From assembly GCF_009914755.1 (NCBI RefSeq), contig NC_060943.1: a stretch of 64,000 nucleotides of DNA; one strand, 5' to 3'. Shown here piece after piece: positions 1-54,425 of this stretch; position 1 is the first letter of the stretch, and each line of letters begins with the position of its first letter. Origin of the DNA: the human T2T-CHM13v2.0 reference genome, Homo sapiens. The translations under genes and the position numbers were made by a program. The notes below the pieces were generated by a model. It did not search any database, had not been told where the DNA came from, and worked only from the letters and a program-made list of their open reading frames with translations.

Positions 1-972
1 AAATTAATACTTTTGTAATTTCTTATGCCTGTCTTTACTGCAATCTGTAAACATAAATCGTAAAGATTTCATGGACACTTATCACTTCCCCAATCAATAT
101 CCTTGTGATTTCCTATGCCTGTCTTTGCTTTAATCTCTTAATCCTGTCAGCCGAGAAGGATGTATATCGTCTCAGGACCCTGTAATAATTGTGTTAACTA
201 CACAAATTGTACAGCATGTGTGTTTGAGCAATATGAAATGTAGGCACCCTGAAAAAAGAACAGGATAACAGCAATTGTTCAGGGAATAAGAGAGAGAACC
301 TTTAACTCTGACCGCCGGTGAGCCGGGCGGAACAGAGCCATATTTGTCTTCTTTCAAAAGCAAATGGGAGAAATATCACTGAATTCCTTTTCTCAGCATG
401 GAACGTCCCTGAGAAACAGAATGCGCACCTAGGGGTAGGTCTCTGAACTGGCCTCCCCCGGGCGTACCTGTCTCTTATGGTCGAGATTGCAGAGGTGAAA
501 TAAACTCCAGTCTCCCATAGCGCTCCCAGGCTTGTTAGGAAGAGGAAATTCCCGCCTAATAAACTTTGGTCAGACCGGTTGATCTCAAAACCCTGTCTCC
601 TGATAAGATGTTATCAATGACAATGGTGCCCAAAACTTCATTAGCAATTTTAATTTCACTTCGGTCCTGTGGTCCTGTGATCTCGCCCTGCCTCCACTTG
701 CCTTGTGATATTCTATTACCCTGTTAAGTACTTGATGTCTGTCACCCACACCTATTCGTATCCTCCCTCCCCTTTTGAAACTCCCTAATAAAAACTTGCT
801 GGTTTTTGTGGCTTGTGGGGCATCACAGATCCTACCAATGTGTGATGTCTCCCCCGGAGGCCCAGCTTTAAAATTTCTCTCTTTTGTACTCTGTCCTTTT
901 ATTTCTCAAGCCAGTCGACGCTTAGGCAAATAGAAAAGAACCTACGTGATTATTGGGGCAGGTCCCCCGATA
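1..972 (+). mobile_element. MER11-type (HERV-K11/HML-8) LTR, 5' part outside window
   Basis: Internal repeats 'tttcctatgcctgtcttt', AATAAA near 787 and 3' end 'agaaaagaacctacgtg...ggggcaggtcccccgata' match the recalled MER11 consensus. Confidence 0.75.
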
Positions 973-1219: not shown

Positions 1220-3175
1220 TTTGGGGAAAAGAAAGAGAGATCAGACTGTTACTGTGTCTATGTAGAAAGAAGTAGACATAAGAAACTCCATTTTGTTCTG
1301 TACTAAGAGAAATTCTTCTGCCTTGAGATGCTGTTAATCTGTAACCTGAGCCCCAACCCTGTGCCCACAGAGACGTGCTGTGTTGATGAAGGGGTGGGTT
1401 GCCCCTCCTCACCTGTGGGTGTTTCTCGTAAGGTGGAACAAGAGTCTTGGAAAAGAAAAGACACAGAGACAAAGTATAGGGAAAGAAATTAGAGGACCCG
1501 GGGAACCAGCGTTCAGCATATGGAGGATCCCGCCAGCCTCTGAGTTCCCTTAGTATTTATTGATCATTCATGGGTGTTTCTCCGAGAGGGGGATGTGGCA
1601 GGGTCACAAGACAATAGTGGGGAGAGGGTCAGCAGACAAACACGTGAACAAAGGTCTTTGCATCATAGACAAAGTAAAGAATCAAGTGCTGTGCTTTAGA
1701 TATGCATACACATAAACATCTCAATGCCTTACAGAGCAGTATTGCTGCCCGCATGTCCCACCTCCAGCCCTAAGGCGGTTTTTCCCTATCTCAGTAGATG
1801 GAACGTACAATCGGGTTTTATACCAAGACATTCCATTGCCCAGGGACAGGCAGGAGGCAGATGCCTTCCTCTTGTCTCAACTGCAAGAGGCATGCCTTCC
1901 TCTTATACTAATCCTCCTCAGCACAGACCCTTTACGGGTGTCGGGCTGGGGGACGGTCAGGTCTTTTCCTTCCCACGAGGCCATATTTCAGACTATCACA
2001 TGGGGAGAAACCTTGGACAATACCTGGCTTTCCTAGGCAGAGGTCCCTGCGGCCTTCCGCAGTGTTTGTGTCCCTGGGTACTTGAGATTAGGGAGTGGTG
2101 ATGACTCTTAAGGAGCATGCTGCCTTCAAGCATCTGTTTAACAAAGCACATCTTGCACCGCCCTTAATCCATTTAACCCTGAGTTGACACAGCACATGTT
2201 TCCGAGAGCATGGGGTTGGCGGTAAGGTCATAGATTAACAGAATCTCATGGCAGAAGAATTTTTCTTAGTACAGAACAAAATGGAGTCTCCTATGTCTAC
2301 TTCTTTCTACACAGACACAGTAACAATCTGATCTCTCTTGCTTTTCCCCACAGTTGACTTAAGGTTTAATGGATTTAGGGCTGTGCAGGATGTGGTTTGT
2401 TAAAAAAGTGCTTGAAGGCAGTATGTTTGGTAAAAGTCATAGCCATTCTCTAATCTCGAGTACTCAGGGACTCAATGCACTGCAGAAGGCTGCAGGGACC
2501 TCTGCCCAGGAAAGCCAGGTATTGTCCAAGGTTTCTCCCCATGTGATAGCCTGAGATATGTCCTCATGGGAAGGGAAAGACCTGACTGTCCCCCAGCCCA
2601 ACACCCGTAAAGGGTCTGTGCTGAGGAGGATTAGTGAAAGAGGGAGGCCTCTTTGCCGTTGAGATAAGAGGAAGGCACCTGTCTCCTGTTTGTCCCTGGG
2701 AATGGAATGTCTCGGTGTAAAACCCGAACGTTCGTTCTATTTACTGAGATAGGAGAAAACTGCCTTATGGCTGGAGGTGAGACATACTGGCGGCAATACT
2801 GCTCTTTACTGCACTAAAATTTTTGTGAAAAGTCAGACATAAATCTGGCCTATGTGCGCATCGAGGCACAGCACCTTTCCTTAAACTTATTTATCACAGA
2901 GATCTTTGCTCACTTGTTTTCCTGCTGACCCTCTCCCCACCATTACCCTATTGTCCTGCCACATCCCCCTCATCGAGATGGTAGAAATAGTGATCAATAA
3001 ATACTGAGGGAACTCAGAGACCAGTGCCGGCGTGGGTCCTCCGTATGCTGAGCGCCGGTCCCCTGGGCCCACTGTTCTTTCTCTATACTTTGTCTCTGTG
3101 TCTTATTTCTTTTCTCAGTCTCTCATCCCACCTGACGAGAAACACCCACAGGTGTGGAGGGGCTGGCCCCCTTCA
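1220..3175 (+). mobile_element. HERV-K(HML-2) solo LTR (older LTR5A/B type), split by a nested LTR
   Basis: Starts 'tggggaaaagaaagagagatcagactgttactg', ends 'ggctggcccccttca'; GTTGT on both flanks; sequence resumes at 2353 after the insert. Confidence 0.9.
1387..2352 (-). mobile_element. HERV-K(HML-2) solo LTR, LTR5_Hs-like, nested in the previous LTR
   Basis: 966 bp; minus strand begins TGTGGGGAAAAGCAAGAGAGATCAGATTG and ends GGGGCAACCCACCCCTTCA; TSD GTTGA at 1382-1386 and 2353-2357. Confidence 0.92.
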
Positions 3176-13803: not shown

Positions 13804-14343
13804 TAAAAAAAAAAGCAGAATATTGAGGACTCTTTGTGGAAGACCATATGATGGTCATAGAATCCATCCATCTTAAAAATCTCTACATTTTATCCCTGAA
13901 TAAAAACAGACCCCCAGGAGGCTGTGGACTTTGGCTACACTGTTCTGGGTCCCTGAAGCACTCTGATCACTGAGTTTGGTTTTGGTATTACACCACTGGC
14001 TTATCTGTGGGGGCACTAACTTCTATATGATCTATATCATGACCCATCAAAGAAATTTCTTCTTAAGTAACATGAAATATTCACTTTTCTAGAGGAGCTT
14101 TCTCCTCAGGGAAAAGGAAACGATTTGTTATTGTGTCCATGTGGTAGACTGCATTTCCCAAAGATGACCACAATAATATCTCACATTCCAAAGAAAACCT
14201 TCTGCTAAATCTTGCCACTCCCACACGAAGAGATGGAGCCTATTCCCTTCCCCCTTGAACCTAGCTAGTCTTGGTGATTTGCTTGTACCTGCAGAATACA
14301 ACAGAGGTGACACAACATAACTTCCGAGGCTAAGGCAGAAAAG

Positions 14344-15332
14344 CATGGGGGAAAGAATGAGAGATCAGACTATTACTGCATCTATGTAGAAAAAGGAAGA
14401 CAAAAGAAACTCCATTTTGATCTGTACTAAGAGAAATTATTCTGCCTTGAGATGCTGTTAATCTGTAACCCTAGCCCCAACCCTATGCTTGCAGAAACAT
14501 GTATTGTATTGACTCAAGGTTTAATGGACTTAGGGCTGTGCAGGATGTGCCTTGGTAAAAATGTGTTTGCAGGCAGTATGCTTGGTAAAAGTCATGGCCA
14601 TTCTCCAGTCTCGAGTACCCAGGGACACAATGCACTGCAGAAAGCCACAGGGATCTCTGCCCAAGAAAGCCTGTGTATTGTCCAAGGTTTCTCTCCACTG
14701 AGACAGCCTGAGATATGGCCTCATGGAAAGAGAAAGACCAGACTGTCCCCCAGCCTGACACCCATAAAGGGTCTGTGCTGAGGAGGATTAGTGAAAGAGG
14801 AAGACCTCTTTGCAGTTGAGATAAGAGGAAGGTATCTCTCTCCTGCTCATCCCTGGGAATGGAATGTGTCAGTGTAAAACCCGATCGTACATTCTATTTA
14901 CTGAGATAGGAGAAAACTGCCTTATGGCTGGAGGTGAGACATGGTGGGGGCAATACTGTCTTTACTTCACTGAGATGTTTGTGTAAAGTCAAAGATAAAT
15001 CTGGCCTATGTGCATATCAAGGCACAGCACCTTTCCTTAAACTTATTTATAACACAGAGTCCTTTGCTCACGTTTTCCTGCTGACCCTCTTCCCACCATT
15101 ACCCTATAGTCCTCCCACATCCCCCTCACCGAGATAGTAGAGATAGTAATCAATAAATACTGAGGGAACTCAGAGACCAGTGTTGGTGCGGGTCCTCCGT
15201 ATGTTGAGTGCCGGTTCCCTGGGCCCACTTTTCTTCCTCGATAGTTTGTCTCTGTGTCTTATTTCTTTTCTCAGTCTCTCGTCTCCACCTTGTGAGAAAT
15301 ACCCACAGGTGTGGAGGGGCAGGCCTCCTTCA
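14344..15332 (+). mobile_element. HERV-K(HML-2) LTR5A/B-type LTR followed by a primer-tRNA copy
   Basis: Full U3-R-U5 colinear with the other LTR5 copies; ends 'ggcaggcctccttca'; first two bases read CA rather than TG. Confidence 0.92.
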
Positions 15333-15334
15333 TC

Positions 15335-15407
15335 TGGCACCCAACATGGGGCACGAACCCATGACCCTGAGATTAAGAGTCTCATGCTCTACCGACTGAG
15401 CTAGCTG
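15335..15407 (-). tRNA. tRNA-Lys(CTT) retrocopy/pseudogene including 3' CCA
   Basis: Minus strand reads GCTAGCTCAGTCGGTAGAGCATGAGACTCTTAATCTCAGGGTCATGGGTTCGTGCCCCATGTTGGGTGCCA; anticodon CTT at 15375-15377; 5' end of the acceptor stem is missing, so probably non-functional. Confidence 0.93.
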
Positions 15408-15696
15408 CAGAATGCAACAGAGGTGACACAACATAACTTCTGAGGCTAAGGCAGAAAAGGCCCTGTGGCCGCATCTTGGCTGTCTCAGAGCCAGCATCAT
15501 GCTGTGAGAAGCCCATCCATGTCACATGTGGAGGTCACACACAGGTGCTCTGGCTGGCAGCCTCCTTGAGCCTAGTTTTCAAGTAATCCCAGCCTGGCAC
15601 ACAGATACAGAGAGGAAGAAGCCTTCAGATGATTCCAGTCCCCAACCTTCTGAGTCTTCCAGTTGAGATTCAAGACATCATGGTGTGAAGACAAGC

Positions 15697-16918
15697 TGTG
15701 CAGTAAAGGATAAACAGAGCGAGTCTGGGTTACCCAGAAACTGAACATTCCAAAGAAAGGCTCAGCCCTTCCCTATACCTGGCAGGTAACTTCTAAACCA
15801 AGCTTGTCCAACCTGCGGACCATGGGGTGCACATGGCCCAGGAGGGCTTTGTTTTGTTGTTGTTGGTGGTGGTGCACACAGCCCAGGAGGGCTTTGTTTT
15901 GTTGTTGTTGTTGTTGTTTTTGTTGTTTGAGATGGAGTTTCACTCTGTTGCCCAGGCTGGAGTGCAGGGGCACAATCTCAGCTCACTGCAACCTCCAACT
16001 CTCAAGTTCAAGCGATTCTCCCACATTCGAGCAATTCTCCTACTTCAGCCTCCCAAGTAGCTGAGATTACAGGCATGTGCCACCATGCCCAGATAGTTTT
16101 TTGTATTTTTAGTAGAGACGGGGTTTCACCATATTGGCAAGCCTGGTCTGGAACTACTGACCTCAAGTGATCTGCCCACTTCAGCCTCCCAAAGTGCTGG
16201 GATTACAGGCATAAGCCACTGTGCCTGGCCTCCAGGAGGGCTTTGAATGCAAAACAAATTTGTAAACTTTCTTAAAACATTATGAGATTTTTTGAGTTTT
16301 TTTTCTTTTTTCTTTAAGCTCATCAGCTATTGTTAGTGTTAGTATATTTTATGTGTGGCCCAAGACAATTCTTCTTCCAGTGTGGCCCAGGGAAGCCAAA
16401 AGACTGCACACTCCTACTCTAAGCCGTTGGAATATATTGTCCGATGAGGGTCTTTGTTTACTGGGAGCCTTGGGTCACACAAGATCGTCTATGCTAACAA
16501 TGTATGATGGAAGCCTTGGGCCACACTGTAGTTATGGTGGCCTCTGAAAGGGCTGAAGAATAAGGTCAGCCACTCATGTGCTCAGCCTCACCCATATAAC
16601 TAAAGCCAAATAAAAACCCTGGACACCCAGGCTCAAGTGGGCTTCCTGTACTGGCAATACATCATGCCTGTCGTCACACATCATGGCTAGGACAATCAAA
16701 CATTGTCCATATGACTCCACAGAGAGAGGAAAACTCAAAGCTTCTGCACAGCATCTCCCAAACCCTGCCCTACACACCTTTCTCTGTTTCTGATTTTAAC
16801 TGTATCCAGTCTATGTAATAAAATAAAATCATGAATATGACAGTTTTGCTGAGCTCTGTGTTATTCTAACAAATTATTGAACCTGAGGAACCCCAGATCT
16901 TGCGATCCCCAGAACATA
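15697..16918 (+). mobile_element. Old ERVL/MER68-like LTR interrupted by Alu (15885-16230, -) and MER30 (~15805-16420)
   Basis: 'tgtgcagtaaagg...ccctggacacccaggctcaagtgggcttcc...ttattgaacctgagg'; MER30 motif 'agctcatcagctattgttagtgttagt'. Confidence 0.5.
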
Positions 16919-18089: not shown

Positions 18090-19079
18090 TGTAGGGGAAA
18101 GAAAGATAGATCAGACTGCTACTGTGTCTATGTAGAAAGAAGTAGACATAAGAAACTCCATTTTGTTCTGTACTAAGAAAAATTCTTCTGCCTTGAGATG
18201 CTGTTAATCTGTAACCCTAGCCCCAACCCTGTGCTCACAGAAACATGTGCTGTGTCGACTCATGTCCAAGGTCTAATGGATTTAGGGCTGTGCAGGCTGT
18301 GCTTTGTTAAAAAGTGTTTGCAGGCAGTATGCTTGGTAAAAGTCATCACCATTCTCCAGTCTCGAGTACCCAGGGACACAATGCATTGCAGAAGGCCACA
18401 AGGACCTCTGCCCAAGAAAGCCTGGGTATTGTCCAAAGTTTCTCCCTGCTGAGACAGCCTGAGATATGGACTCATGGGAAGGGAAAGACCTGACTATCCC
18501 CCAACACAACACCCATAAAGAGTCTGTGCCTAGGAAGATTAGTAAAAGAGGAAGGCCTCTTTGCAGTTAAGATAAGAAGAGGGCATCTGTCTCCTGCTCA
18601 TCCCTGGGAATGGAATGTCTCAGTTTAAAACCCAATTGTACATTCTATTTACTGAGATAGGAGAAAACTGCCTTATGGCTGGAGGTGAGACATGCTGGCA
18701 GCAATACTGCTCTATACTACACTGAGATGCTTGTGTAAAGTCAAACATAAATCTGGCCTACGTGCACATCAAGGCACAGCACCTTTCCTTATTTATGACA
18801 CAGAGAACTTTGTTCACATATTTTCCTGCTGACCCTCTCCCCACCATTACCCTATAGTCCTGCCACATCCCCCTCACCGAGATGGTAGAGATAGTGATCA
18901 ATGAATACTGAGGAAACTCAGAGACCAGTGCTGGCAGGAGTCCTTCGTATGCTGAGTGCTGGTCCCCTGGGCCCACTGTTCTTTCTCTATACTTTGTCAG
19001 TGTGTCTTATTTCTTTTCTCAGTCTCTCATCCCACCAGATGAGAAATACCCACAGGTGTGGAGAGGCTGGCCCCCTTCA
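18090..19079 (+). mobile_element. HERV-K(HML-2) LTR5A/B-type solo LTR without TSD
   Basis: TGTAGGGGAAAG...CCCCCTTCA; flanks TACCAG and TAAGGT do not match. Confidence 0.92.
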
Positions 19080-50975: not shown

Positions 50976-51970
50976 TGTGGGGGAAAGCAAGAGAGATCAG
51001 ACTATTACTATATCTATGTAGAAAGAAAAAGACGTAACAAACTCCATTTTATTCCGTACTAAGAAAAATTCTTCTGCCTTGAGATGCTGTTAATCTGTAA
51101 CCCTAGCCCCAACCTTGTGCTTGCAGAGACATGTGCTGTGTTGACTCAAGGTTTAATGGATTTAGGGCTGTGCAGGACGTGCTTTGTTAAAAATGTGTTT
51201 GAAGGTAGTATGCTTGGTAAAAGTCATCGCCATTCTCCAGTCTCAAGTACCCAGGGACACAATGCATTGCAGAAGGCCACAGGGACCTCTGCCCTAGAAA
51301 GCCTGGGTATTGTCCAAGGTTTCTCTCCACTGAGACAGCCTGAGATATGGCCTCATGGGAAGGGAAAGACCTGGCCATCCCCCAGCCTGACACCCATAAA
51401 GGGTCTGGGCTGAGGAGGATTCGTGAAAGAGGAAGATCTCTTTGCAGTTGAGATAAGAGGAAGGCATCTGTCTCCTGCTCATCCCTGGGAATGGAATATC
51501 TCAGTGTAAAACTTGATCATACATTCTATTTACTGAGATAGGAGAAAACTGCCTTATGGCTGGAGGTGAGATATGCTGGGGGCAATACTGCTCTTTACTG
51601 CACTGAGATGCTTGTGTAAAGTCAAACATAAATCTGGCCTACGTGCACATCAAGGCACACACAGCACCTTTCCTTAAACTTATTTATGACACAGAGTCCT
51701 TTGCTCACGTGTTTTCCTGCTGACCCTCTCCCCACCATTACCCTATAGTCCTGCCACATCCCCCTCACCGAGATTGTAAAGATAGTGATCAATAAATACT
51801 GAAGAAACTCAGAGACCAGTGCTGGCGTGGGTCCTCCATACGCTGAGTGCTGGTCCTCTGGGCCCACTGTTCTTTCTCTATACTTTGTCTCTGTGTCTTA
51901 TTTCTTTTCTCAGTCTCTCATCCTACCTGACGAGAAACACCCACAGGTGTGGAGGGGCTGGCCCCCTTCA
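50976..51970 (+). mobile_element. HERV-K(HML-2) LTR5A/B-type solo LTR without TSD
   Basis: TGTGGGGGAAAG...CCCCCTTCA; flanks CAGTAG and GCTGTA do not match. Confidence 0.92.
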
Positions 51971-53436: not shown

Positions 53437-54425
53437 TGAAGGGGGCCAGCCCTTCCACCCCTGTGGATATTTCTCATCAGGTGGGATGAGAGACTGAGAA
53501 AAGAAAGAAGACACAGAGACAAAGTATAGAGAAAGAACAGTGGGCCCAGGGGACCGGCGCTCAGCATACAGAGGACCCACACCAGCACTGGTCTCTGAGT
53601 TCCCTCAGTATTTATTGATCACTATCTCTACCATCTCGGTGAGGGGGATATGGCAGGACTATAGGGTGATGGTGGGGAGAGGGTCAGCAGGAAAACATGT
53701 GAGCAAAGGACTCTGTGTCATAAATAAGTTTAAGGAAAGGTGCTGTGTGTGCCTTGTTGTGCACATAGGCCAGATTTATGTTTGACTTTACACAAACATC
53801 TCAGTGCAGTAAAGATCAGTATTGCCCCCAGCATGTCTCACCTCCGGCCATAAGGCGGTTTTCTCCTATCTCAGTAAACAAAATTTACGATTGGGTTTTA
53901 CACTGAGACATTCCATTCCCAAGGACGAGCAGGAGACAGATGGCTTCCTCTTATCTCAACTGCAAAGAGGCCTTCCTGTTTTACTAATCCTCCAGGGCCC
54001 AAACCCTTTATGGGTGTCGGGCTGGGGGAGGGTCAAGTCTTTCCCTTCCCAAGAGGCCATATCTCAGGCTGTCTCAGTGGGGAGAAACCTTGGACAATAC
54101 CCAGGCTTTCTAGGGCAGAGGTCCCTGTGGCCTTCCGCAGTGCATTGTGTCCCTGGGTACTCGAGACTGGGGAATGGTGATGACTTTTACCAAGCATACT
54201 GCCTGCAAACACATTTTAACAAAGCACATCCTGCACAGCCCTAAATCCATTAAACCTTGAGTCAACACAGCACATGTTTCTGTGAGCACAAGGTTGGGGC
54301 TAGGGTTACAGATTAACAGCATCTCAAGGCAGAAGAATTTCTTAGTACAGAACAAAATGGAGTTCCTTATGTCTACTTTCTTCATAGACACAGTAACAGT
54401 CTGATCTCTCTTTCTTTTCCCCACA
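53437..54425 (-). mobile_element. HERV-K(HML-2) LTR5A/B-type solo LTR
   Basis: Minus strand TGTGGGGAAAAG...CCCCCTTCA; perfect TSD CTCTCT at 53431-53436 and 54426-54431. Confidence 0.94.

What the first reader, a model, noticed from the sequence alone, without database searches (positions are those of the whole stretch)
14289..15459. HERV-K LTR fused to a near-complete copy of its own tRNA-Lys primer, inside a 55-bp target duplication: fossil of aberrant reverse transcription and one-ended integration
Seen: a full LTR5 (14344-15332), the usual TC spacer and the 18-nt PBS (15335-15352). Where the gag leader should follow, the sequence continues as the reverse complement of tRNA-Lys(CTT) for at least 71 of 76 nt, including the post-transcriptionally added CCA. 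The unit is flanked by a 55-bp direct repeat, whereas the normal LTR5 TSDs in this window are 5-6 bp. Established: HML-2 primes on tRNA-Lys(CUU), plus-strand strong-stop synthesis normally halts after 18 nt at m1A58, and retroviral DNAs with one defective end can be joined by host repair with long target duplications. Inference: RT copied through the whole primer, the U5 end was unusable by integrase and was joined by host repair (1-3 nt microhomology C/CTG at 15405), and either the strong-stop DNA itself integrated or a provirus later collapsed to a solo LTR. This is an L1-independent route to tRNA pseudogenes, and it puts Pol III A/B boxes facing antisense into the LTR, resembling a tRNA+LTR proto-SINE.
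Basis: partly seen in the sequence, partly recalled or inferred. Interest (0 to 1): 0.92.

Follow-up and report, generated by a model that had tools for sequence, protein, structure and literature searches.

The report
Retroviral LTR fused to its tRNA primer
An ancient HERV-K long terminal repeat on human chromosome 19 runs straight on into a DNA copy of the tRNA that primed its reverse transcription, a fossil of a copying error that recurs at about nine other places in the same genome.

Summary
Window 14344-15332 is an LTR5-type HERV-K LTR. It is followed by TC, the 18-nt primer-binding site, and then 53 more bases complementary to tRNA-Lys(CTT), down to tRNA nt 6. The unit sits between two copies of a 55-nt target sequence that differ at 2 of 55 positions.

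Three things are new.
1. It is not unique. The same genome holds 12 loci with CCA-bearing tRNA-Lys(CTT) complements. Ten directly follow HERV-K-type sequence in primer-binding-site register, from three LTR families. Two isodecoders, different end points and a scattered tree show independent events.
2. The only non-CpG difference from the tRNA gene in the window copy is at tRNA position 58, the m1A58 stop site. That position is changed in 4 of 10 copies (expected 0.5).
3. The window LTR begins CA, where 8 of 8 comparators begin TG, so integrase joining of the U3 end is not shown.

Copies that regained a U5 end have normal 5-6-bp duplications. Copies ending in tRNA do not.

Verdict: a germline fossil of primer read-through, joined at the tRNA end by host repair. 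Whether a provirus ever existed here is unresolved. The proto-SINE idea has no support.

The parts
14289..14343 (.). Target-site duplication, copy 1 (55 nt), part of an old interspersed repeat
   Evidence: Paralogues L075, L078, L079 and L080 carry this stretch once.
14344..14345 (+). CA at the place of the canonical LTR-initial TG
   Evidence: Eight of 8 full LTR5-type comparators begin TGT.
14344..15332 (+). LTR5-type HERV-K (HML-2 group) LTR, U3-R-U5, 989 nt, ending ...TTCA
   Evidence: 88-90% identity to other copies over the full length. Tree.
15333..15334 (+). TC dinucleotide between U5 and the primer-binding site
   Evidence: TC in 5 of 5 normal proviral copies.
15335..15352 (+). 18-nt primer-binding site, complement of tRNA-Lys(CTT) nt 76-59 including CCA; two CpG transitions
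15353..15353 (+). Base opposite tRNA position 58 (m1A58): A where T is expected. The only non-CpG difference from the tRNA gene.
   Evidence: 0 of 60 other non-CpG positions differ.
15353..15405 (+). Read-through: complement of tRNA-Lys(CTT) nt 58 to 6. 15406-15407 could be nt 5-4 after CpG decay, or target.
15405..15459 (.). Target-site duplication, copy 2 (55 nt). Its first base overlaps the last tRNA-derived base.

Best explanation
This is a germline fossil of aberrant HERV-K (LTR5-type) reverse transcription. Plus-strand DNA synthesis started at the U3 edge and copied U3-R-U5 and the TC. Instead of halting after 18 nt at m1A58 of the primer tRNA-Lys(CUU), it bypassed that modified base, inserting a wrong base opposite it. 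It then copied the tRNA down to nt 6 (shown by sequence). The resulting right end had no CA terminus that integrase could use. It was joined to chromosomal DNA by host end-joining or fill-in with 1-3 nt of overlap, at breaks in the two target strands 55 nt apart, which duplicated the target (inferred). The left end is also non-canonical (CA for TG). The insert may therefore have entered without integrase as an LTR-length, strong-stop-type DNA. Alternatively, integrase joined one end of a full-length DNA, two later substitutions changed TG to CA, and the provirus collapsed to a solo LTR. I treat these two as about equally likely. The tRNA-like part is a dead pseudogene, not a working gene.
For: The LTR-TC-PBS register is exact and the complementarity continues for 53 further nt. 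Normal copies diverge into the leader after the PBS in 5 of 5 cases. The window copy matches the tRNA gene at 67 of 71 positions. Three differences are CpG transitions and the fourth is at position 58, with 0 of 60 other non-CpG positions changed. Position 58 is changed in 4 of 10 LTR-linked copies against 0.51 expected, Poisson-binomial P = 7.6e-4. The event recurs. Twelve loci have CCA-bearing copies (40 of 40 candidates scored), and 10 of them lie directly behind HERV-K-type sequence. Independence is shown by two isodecoders (B type at chr18 and chr5a, A type in the others), different tRNA end points, and a tree in which the 5 read-through LTRs need 4 changes (222 of 500 shuffles as low). 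The kind of end predicts the kind of duplication. The two copies that switched back into the LTR and regained a U5 end have 6-bp (CTTCCC) and 5-bp (AAGTG) duplications. The window copy has 55 bp, and chr7a has 0 bp inside an Alu. Literature, passages read: m1A58 is needed for the plus-strand strong stop, and read-through blocks normal completion (PMC8599865). When one viral end is bad, the good end goes in by integrase and the other by host enzymes, most often with long host duplications (PMC5041404). tRNA primer sequences occur in 2-LTR junctions (PMC5618025).
Against: No empty orthologous site could be examined, so the timing and single-step nature of the insertion rest on the duplication and on paralogues only. 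The CA start contradicts a clean integrase-joined U3 end, yet long duplications are best documented for one-ended integrase events, so the two clues pull in opposite directions. The position-58 test concerns a site I noticed while reading the alignment, although it is the biologically predicted one. After correction for 64 non-CpG columns it is only about 0.05. Six of 10 copies carry the expected T. For chr16, chr5a and chr7b no duplication could be assigned (for chr16 and chr5a; by eye for chr7b). The pattern 'tRNA end means abnormal duplication' therefore rests on the window and chr7a.
Confidence: 0.85

Rival explanations
1. One-ended integrase integration of a full-length HERV-K DNA whose right end carried the tRNA copy. 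Host repair joined the right end, and LTR-LTR recombination later left a solo LTR.
For: Long host duplications are the commonest outcome when only one viral end is integrase-competent (PMC5041404). Four other tRNA-ended copies (chr16, chr5a, chr7a, chr7b) start exactly at TG, as expected for an integrase-joined left end. chr19b keeps HERV-K pro/pol sequence in front of the U5 end and the tRNA copy, so read-through right ends do occur on longer viral DNA.
Against: The window LTR starts CA, not TG, whereas 8 of 8 comparators start TG. Elsewhere in the tRNA part, 0 of 60 non-CpG sites changed, so two later substitutions at exactly these two bases are improbable. No internal viral sequence remains here.
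Confidence: 0.4
2. Direct, integrase-independent insertion of an LTR-length, strong-stop-type DNA (plus-strand strong-stop DNA with read-through, paired with minus-strand DNA). No provirus ever existed at this site.
For: The insert corresponds to plus-strand strong-stop DNA: from the U3 edge (minus 2 nt) to inside the tRNA. Both junctions are non-canonical: CA at the left, and tRNA with 1-3 nt of overlap at the right. Read-through is expected to block plus-strand transfer (PMC8599865), leaving just this molecule.
Against: Most HERV-K insertions are solo LTRs today (recalled), so the absence of internal sequence proves nothing. A 55-bp duplication is not the usual outcome of simple fragment capture at a break. 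No experimental precedent was found in the searches I ran.
Confidence: 0.4
3. Two unrelated events: a solo LTR, and later a tRNA retropseudogene (for example L1-mediated) that landed beside it.
For: Two CCA-bearing tRNA-Lys copies elsewhere (chr1a, chr5b) are preceded by T-runs rather than an LTR, so tRNA copies of another origin exist.
Against: The register with TC and the primer-binding site is exact. The orientation is antisense. There is no A-tail. One 55-nt duplication encloses both LTR and tRNA. The same arrangement occurs at 9 other loci.
Confidence: 0.02
4. The 55-mer pair is an older local duplication, unrelated to the insertion.
For: The flanks belong to an old interspersed repeat.
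Against: The repeat boundaries coincide with the two ends of the insert to the base. Four of 4 paralogues that cover the stretch carry it once, and in L080 the spacing to the downstream flank fits a single copy. The copies differ at only 2 of 55 positions, while the paralogues are 65-74% identical.
Confidence: 0.03

Closest known systems
Aberrant retroviral integrations with one defective end (ASLV vectors and HIV-1 under integrase inhibition; PMC5041404, passages read)
   Same: A viral end that integrase cannot use is joined by host enzymes. Extra viral-derived sequence can remain at that end. Host DNA is most often duplicated over far more than the normal 4-6 bp.
   Different: Those are cell-culture events with engineered or drug-blocked ends. 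This is a natural germline event tens of millions of years old, the extra sequence is the primer tRNA itself, and here the 'good' end is also non-canonical (CA for TG).
tRNA primer sequences in unintegrated circle junctions (PMC5618025; also a cloned murine leukaemia virus circle with a whole tRNA between the LTRs, recalled and not seen here)
   Same: Plus-strand synthesis runs on into the primer tRNA, or RNase H fails to remove it, so that tRNA-derived bases sit next to U5.
   Different: Those molecules are unintegrated dead ends. Here the product is integrated and inherited.
m1A58-dependent plus-strand strong stop (PMC8599865)
   Same: The same step of reverse transcription. The fossil shows what happens when the stop fails.
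   Different: That work removes the modification. The misincorporation at position 58 in 4 of 10 fossils suggests bypass of a modified base rather than use of unmodified tRNA.
L1-mediated retropseudogenes of small RNAs
   Same: They yield tRNA-derived pseudogenes that include the post-transcriptional CCA.
   Different: No A-tail here. The tRNA copy is physically continuous with a retroviral U5 in primer register. The target duplication is 55 nt.
LTR elements with tRNA-like Pol III promoters in their LTRs (Helenus/TRIMp3; PMC10886601, passages read) and the strong-stop-DNA hypothesis for the origin of tRNA-derived SINEs (recalled, not seen here)
   Same: A tRNA-derived module next to LTR sequence.
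   Different: Those are families that amplify by descent. The human copies are independent one-off events with no sign of amplification.

Membership tests
HERV-K (HML-2 group) LTR5-type LTR | Full-length homology to other LTR5-type LTRs | tested here: met
   88-90% identity over about 990 nt to four copies in the window and to copies on other chromosomes. Sits inside the tree of 15 copies. The subfamily name (LTR5A/B) was not tested.
HERV-K (HML-2 group) LTR5-type LTR | TG...CA termini | tested here: not met
   The 3' end is ...TTCA as in the others. The 5' end is CA where 8 of 8 full comparators have TG.
Canonical integrase-mediated insertion | 5-6-bp target duplication | tested here: not met
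   55 nt here. 5-6 bp in 3 of 5 other window copies and in chr18 and chr1b.
Plus-strand strong-stop DNA with primer read-through | U3-R-U5, 2-nt spacer and PBS in register, continuing as complement of the same tRNA beyond nt 59 | tested here: met
   (tRNA nt 76 to 6, 67 of 71 identical to the gene).
Plus-strand strong-stop DNA with primer read-through | Template was the mature, modified tRNA | tested here: inconclusive
   The position-58 change is the only non-CpG difference, and 4 of 10 copies are changed there (P = 7.6e-4 uncorrected). CCA is present but is also part of the PBS, so it is not independent evidence.
One-ended integrase integration (aberrant integration) | One normal viral-host junction | tested here: inconclusive
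   The left junction has CA for TG. This could be two later substitutions or a host-made junction.
One-ended integrase integration (aberrant integration) | Long duplication or rearrangement of host DNA at the aberrant end | tested here: met
   55-nt duplication. Precedent in PMC5041404.
L1-mediated tRNA retropseudogene | A-rich tail after the RNA 3' end | tested here: not met
   On the tRNA-sense strand, CCA is followed directly by GA and the U5 complement.
tRNA-derived SINE or LTR element with Pol III head | Copies related by descent from a tRNA+LTR master | tested here: not met
   Two isodecoders and different end points. Read-through LTRs are scattered in the tree.
tRNA-derived SINE or LTR element with Pol III head | Pol III transcription | not testable with these tools
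   No expression or ChIP data are held. tRNA nt 1-5 are missing, position 58 in the B-box region is changed, and the first T-run lies 489 nt downstream.
Functional tRNA-Lys(CTT) gene | Complete acceptor stem; CCA not encoded | tested here: not met
   nt 1-5 are absent and CCA is encoded. True genes L010-L019 lack CCA.

The most novel reading that the evidence does not exclude
Some solo LTRs were never proviruses. When HERV-K-type reverse transcriptases bypass m1A58 and copy the primer tRNA, the stranded LTR-length strong-stop DNA can be inserted into germline DNA by host repair alone. The human genome then keeps a multi-family series of such events. The series also records the m1A58 status of germline tRNA-Lys tens of millions of years ago, and shows three fates after read-through: a jump back into the LTR, a jump to another RNA such as 28S rRNA, or direct joining to the chromosome. 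In the second LTR family a spacer-plus-PBS hexamer followed by a repeated U5 end even seems to have become part of the LTR of a large subfamily.
Probability: 0.3. Interest if true: 0.8.

Novelty: new variant of a known kind. Interest (0 to 1): 0.62.

Why it matters
Each step (strong stop at m1A58, read-through into the primer, host-mediated joining of a bad viral end) is known from cell-culture and in vitro work. The ten full-text searches I ran found no description of inherited, integrated products of primer read-through.

The series gives natural evidence on several points:
- Betaretrovirus-like reverse transcriptases bypass m1A58 in vivo, at roughly 1% of surviving LTR5-type ends. That is 5-6 loci against 551 first-look candidates, which is a rough denominator.
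- The bypass often leaves a wrong base opposite m1A58.
- The kind of end predicts the kind of integration.
- tRNA pseudogenes can arise without L1.

It also warns annotators that 'tRNA-Lys' repeat calls next to HERV-K-type LTRs are by-products of priming. The subscription literature was not searchable, so prior description cannot be excluded.

Tried and rejected
- Orthologous primate loci: no primate genomes are held, so the empty-site test could not be run. Old paralogues of the host repeat were used as a weaker proxy.
- Target duplications of the other tRNA-ended copies. Local alignment of 150-nt flanks gave nothing above shuffles for chr16 and chr5a. A CTTTTT hexamer near both ends of chr16 and a TGATTT hexamer at chr5a are too short and too low in complexity to count. 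chr7b flanks were read by eye only.
Only small pieces were added later.
- Naming the LTR families: no repeat library is held. The second family (at least 1687 first-look candidates) looks to me like MER11/HERVK11, from memory only. The third family (133 candidates) is unnamed.
- PMC10886601, PMC12220202 (abstract), PMC7472051 and PMC3747384 did not describe this phenomenon.
- A scan of other HERV groups with other primer tRNAs was not done.
- Dating: the 2 of 55 differences between the duplicates and a terminal branch of 0.053 give only 'roughly ten to a few tens of millions of years'. I did not try to refine this.

Full report
**What is there**

Reading the window shows a 989-nt LTR at 14344-15332. 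It is followed by TC (15333-15334) and an 18-nt primer-binding site (15335-15352). The same strand then continues for 53 more bases (15353-15405) as the complement of a tRNA.

- ARAGORN calls tRNA-Lys(ctt) at 15339-15409 on the minus strand.
- Rfam's tRNA model scores 46.7 bits, E 2.5e-8, against a gathering score of 29.
- The LTR is 88-90% identical over its whole length to four other LTR5-type copies in the window (50976-51970, 53437-54425, 18090-19079, 2354-3175) and 77% to a fifth (1385-2352). It is similarly close to copies on other chromosomes.
- In 5 of 5 normal proviral copies fetched from the same genome (L008, L021, L023, L025, L027), the LTR is followed by TC, the primer-binding site and then an unrelated leader. 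The continuation into tRNA is therefore abnormal.
- The unit is bracketed by a direct repeat, 14289-14343 versus 15405-15459. It is 55 nt long with 2 differences, one at a CpG. Its local alignment score is 101, against at most 24 in 200 shuffles.

**Comparison with real tRNA genes**

A search of the window's own genome with the tRNA part (40 of 40 candidates scored) returned the tRNA-Lys-CTT genes. Six gene loci (L010-L015) share one sequence, which I call isodecoder A. L017 and L019 carry a variant with a changed anticodon-stem pair, isodecoder B.

The window copy matches isodecoder A at 67 of 71 positions, tRNA nt 76 down to 6. Three of the four differences are CpG transitions. The fourth is at 15353, opposite tRNA position 58, where the plus strand has A instead of T. 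None of the other 60 non-CpG positions differs.

Position 58 is the m1A58 site where plus-strand strong-stop synthesis normally halts (PMC8599865, passages read).

**The event is recurrent**

The same search lists 12 loci where the tRNA complement includes the CCA complement.

Two of these (chr1a at C1:54838082 and chr5b at C5:168924462) are preceded by T-runs and are probably of another origin.

The other ten lie directly behind HERV-K-type sequence, in the same TC (once CC) plus primer-binding-site register:
- Five have full LTR5-type LTRs: the window, chr18 (C18:46280261), chr1b (C1:39372903), chr16 (C16:2954271) and chr5a (C5:26303099).
- One, chr19b (C19:38120807), has HERV-K protease/polymerase-start sequence joined to the last ~10 nt of U5.
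- Three have a second LTR family: chr7a (C7:98371268), chr7b (C7:12733072) and chr11 (C11:54695319). That family has at least 1687 first-look candidates.
- One, chr3 (C3:1721780), has an old third family with 133 candidates, whose hits mostly end at the LTR edge.

A junction-spanning query (20 of 20 scored) found the same five LTR5-type loci (six places, the chr1 locus twice) and no more. The search skips very common words and needs roughly 80% identity, so these are lower bounds.

**The events are independent**

- chr18 and chr5a copied isodecoder B; the others copied isodecoder A.
- The tRNA copy ends at different places:
  - nt 6 in the window and chr18;
  - nt 11 in chr1b;
  - nt 14 in chr7a and chr7b;
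  - nt 1-2 in chr16, chr5a and chr19b;
  - about nt 7-8 in chr3 and chr11, which is uncertain.
- In a maximum-likelihood tree of 15 LTR5-type LTRs, the five read-through copies are scattered. They need 4 changes, and 222 of 500 label shuffles are as low.

There is no sign of a tRNA+LTR master that amplified, so the proto-SINE reading has no support. In addition, the window copy lacks tRNA nt 1-5, carries the position-58 change inside the B-box region, and has its first minus-strand T-run 489 nt downstream.

**Position 58 across the series**

The base opposite position 58 is A in the window and chr19b, G in chr16, C in chr3, and the expected T in the other six.

From each copy's own non-CpG mismatch rate (30 of 584 sites overall), 0.51 changed copies are expected. 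The Poisson-binomial P for 4 or more of 10 is 7.6e-4, and for the six LTR5-linked copies P for 3 or more is 5.9e-4. No other non-CpG column is changed in more than 2 of 10 copies.

A caveat applies. I noticed the site while reading the alignment, although it is the predicted one. Correction for 64 non-CpG columns brings the value to about 0.05.

I read this as bypass of a modified base with misincorporation in some events. Unmodified primer may account for others. That m1A gives mismatches in reverse-transcription-based sequencing is recalled, not checked here.

**What happened after read-through**

Three fates are visible.

1. *A jump back into the LTR.*
   - chr18 has the LTR, TC, tRNA nt 76-6, then the last 53 nt of U5 again, and a normal 6-bp duplication (CTTCCC).
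   - chr1b has tRNA nt 76-11, then the last ~400 nt of the LTR, and a 5-bp duplication (AAGTG). Its 459-nt unit was later doubled in tandem; the repeats are 97.4% identical.
   - Regaining a U5 end thus goes with a normal two-ended integrase footprint.

2. *A jump to another RNA.* In chr19b the complete tRNA copy is followed by the complement of large-subunit rRNA (Rfam LSU_rRNA_eukarya, 162 bits).

3. *Direct joining of the tRNA end to host DNA.*
   - The window copy has a 55-nt duplication.
   - chr7a has none at all. Its flanks abut at positions 2126 and 2128 of a reference Alu in the same locus.
   - For chr16, chr5a and chr7b no duplication could be assigned.

The 55-mer pair arose at this locus. 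The flanks belong to an old interspersed repeat, and the 4 of 4 paralogues that cover the stretch (L075, L078, L079, L080) carry it once.

**How the window copy was inserted**

The right junction has at most 1-3 nt of overlap (C, or CTG if 15406-15407 are decayed tRNA nt 5-4). It has no CA end, so host joining is the reasonable inference.

Experimental work shows that when one viral end is unusable, the good end is inserted by integrase and the other by host enzymes, most often with host duplications much longer than 5 bp (PMC5041404). That fits the 55-nt duplication.

However, the window LTR begins CA, where 8 of 8 full comparators begin TG. A ninth, interrupted window copy reads TT. The four other tRNA-ended copies start exactly at TG. 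Non-CpG change in the tRNA part of this copy is 0 of 60, so two later substitutions at just these bases are improbable, though possible through a CpG intermediate.

Two routes therefore remain about equally likely:
- one-ended integrase integration of a longer DNA, with later collapse to a solo LTR;
- integrase-independent insertion of an LTR-length, strong-stop-type DNA.

The sequence cannot separate them.

**Age**

The duplicates differ at 2 of 55 positions. The LTR's terminal branch is 0.053 changes per site. The tRNA part has 3 of its 10 CpG-column bases changed. This suggests roughly ten to a few tens of millions of years, and I did not refine the estimate.

**Literature**

Ten full-text searches found no description of inherited LTR-plus-primer-tRNA products.

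Passages were read in PMC8599865, PMC5041404, PMC5618025 (tRNA primer sequences in 2-LTR junctions), PMC10886601, PMC7472051 and PMC3747384. For PMC12220202, the abstract and outline were read.

Two items are recalled only: the older report of a cloned murine leukaemia virus circle with a whole tRNA between its LTRs, and the strong-stop-DNA hypothesis for SINE origin. Subscription journals are not covered by the library, so prior description cannot be excluded.

**Verdict**

The claim of an integrase-joined U3 end is not shown, and the proto-SINE idea is unsupported.

The locus is one member of a small, previously unremarked series in the human genome. The value of the finding lies in the series and in the position-58 signature, more than in this single copy.

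Noticed in passing
L053 (G000:C19:38119307-38122379), locus 1253-1568: A chimeric cDNA fossil. HERV-K protease/polymerase-start sequence is joined to the last ~10 nt of U5, then TC, then a complete tRNA-Lys complement (position 58 = A). This is followed by the complement of large-subunit rRNA (Rfam 162 bits). It looks like a template switch from the 5' end of the primer tRNA onto rRNA.
   Followed up: partly
L081, L082, L084 (G000 C5:43668470, C4:55877940, C23:150269530); 24 of 40 scored hits end at query position 207: In the second LTR family, 3 of 4 sampled members end with the U5 end, then TCTGGC (the spacer plus the first four PBS bases), then a 16-nt repeat of the U5 end. This suggests that an old read-in-and-jump-back event became fixed in the LTR of a large subfamily. 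The fourth sampled member (L083) has the LTR, TC and about 7 PBS bases, then unrelated sequence.
   Followed up: partly
window 50976-51970 (+) and 18090-19079 (+): Two full LTR5-type LTRs with canonical TG...CA ends but no matching 5-6-bp target duplication. They may be products of recombination between different insertions.
   Followed up: no
window 1222-3175: An LTR5-type LTR (1222-1377 plus 2354-3175, duplication GTTGT) is interrupted by a second, older LTR5-type LTR in the opposite orientation (1385-2352, duplication TCAAC).
   Followed up: partly
window 776-972: The 3' end of a copy of the second HERV-K-type LTR family, 81% identical to the chr7a copy, ending ...GATA and followed by unrelated flank.
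   Followed up: no
L063 (G000:C1:39371403-39374470), oriented 1106-2426: The read-through unit of chr1b (about 400 nt of LTR 3' part plus TC plus tRNA nt 76-11; 459 nt) is repeated in tandem at 97.4% identity. This is much closer than the age of the element would give, so it is a later unequal exchange or conversion.
   Followed up: partly
L072 (G000:C11:54693819-54696890): This read-through copy has a 5'-truncated LTR that abuts ~170-bp tandem repeats (alpha-satellite-like) on the left and unrelated sequence on the right. A rearranged pericentromeric site.
   Followed up: no
window 15949-16000: A sub-threshold Rfam match to the mir-3135 precursor family (33 bits against a gathering score of 80). 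By recall it lies in Alu-like sequence, and it is probably a repeat-derived chance match.
   Followed up: no
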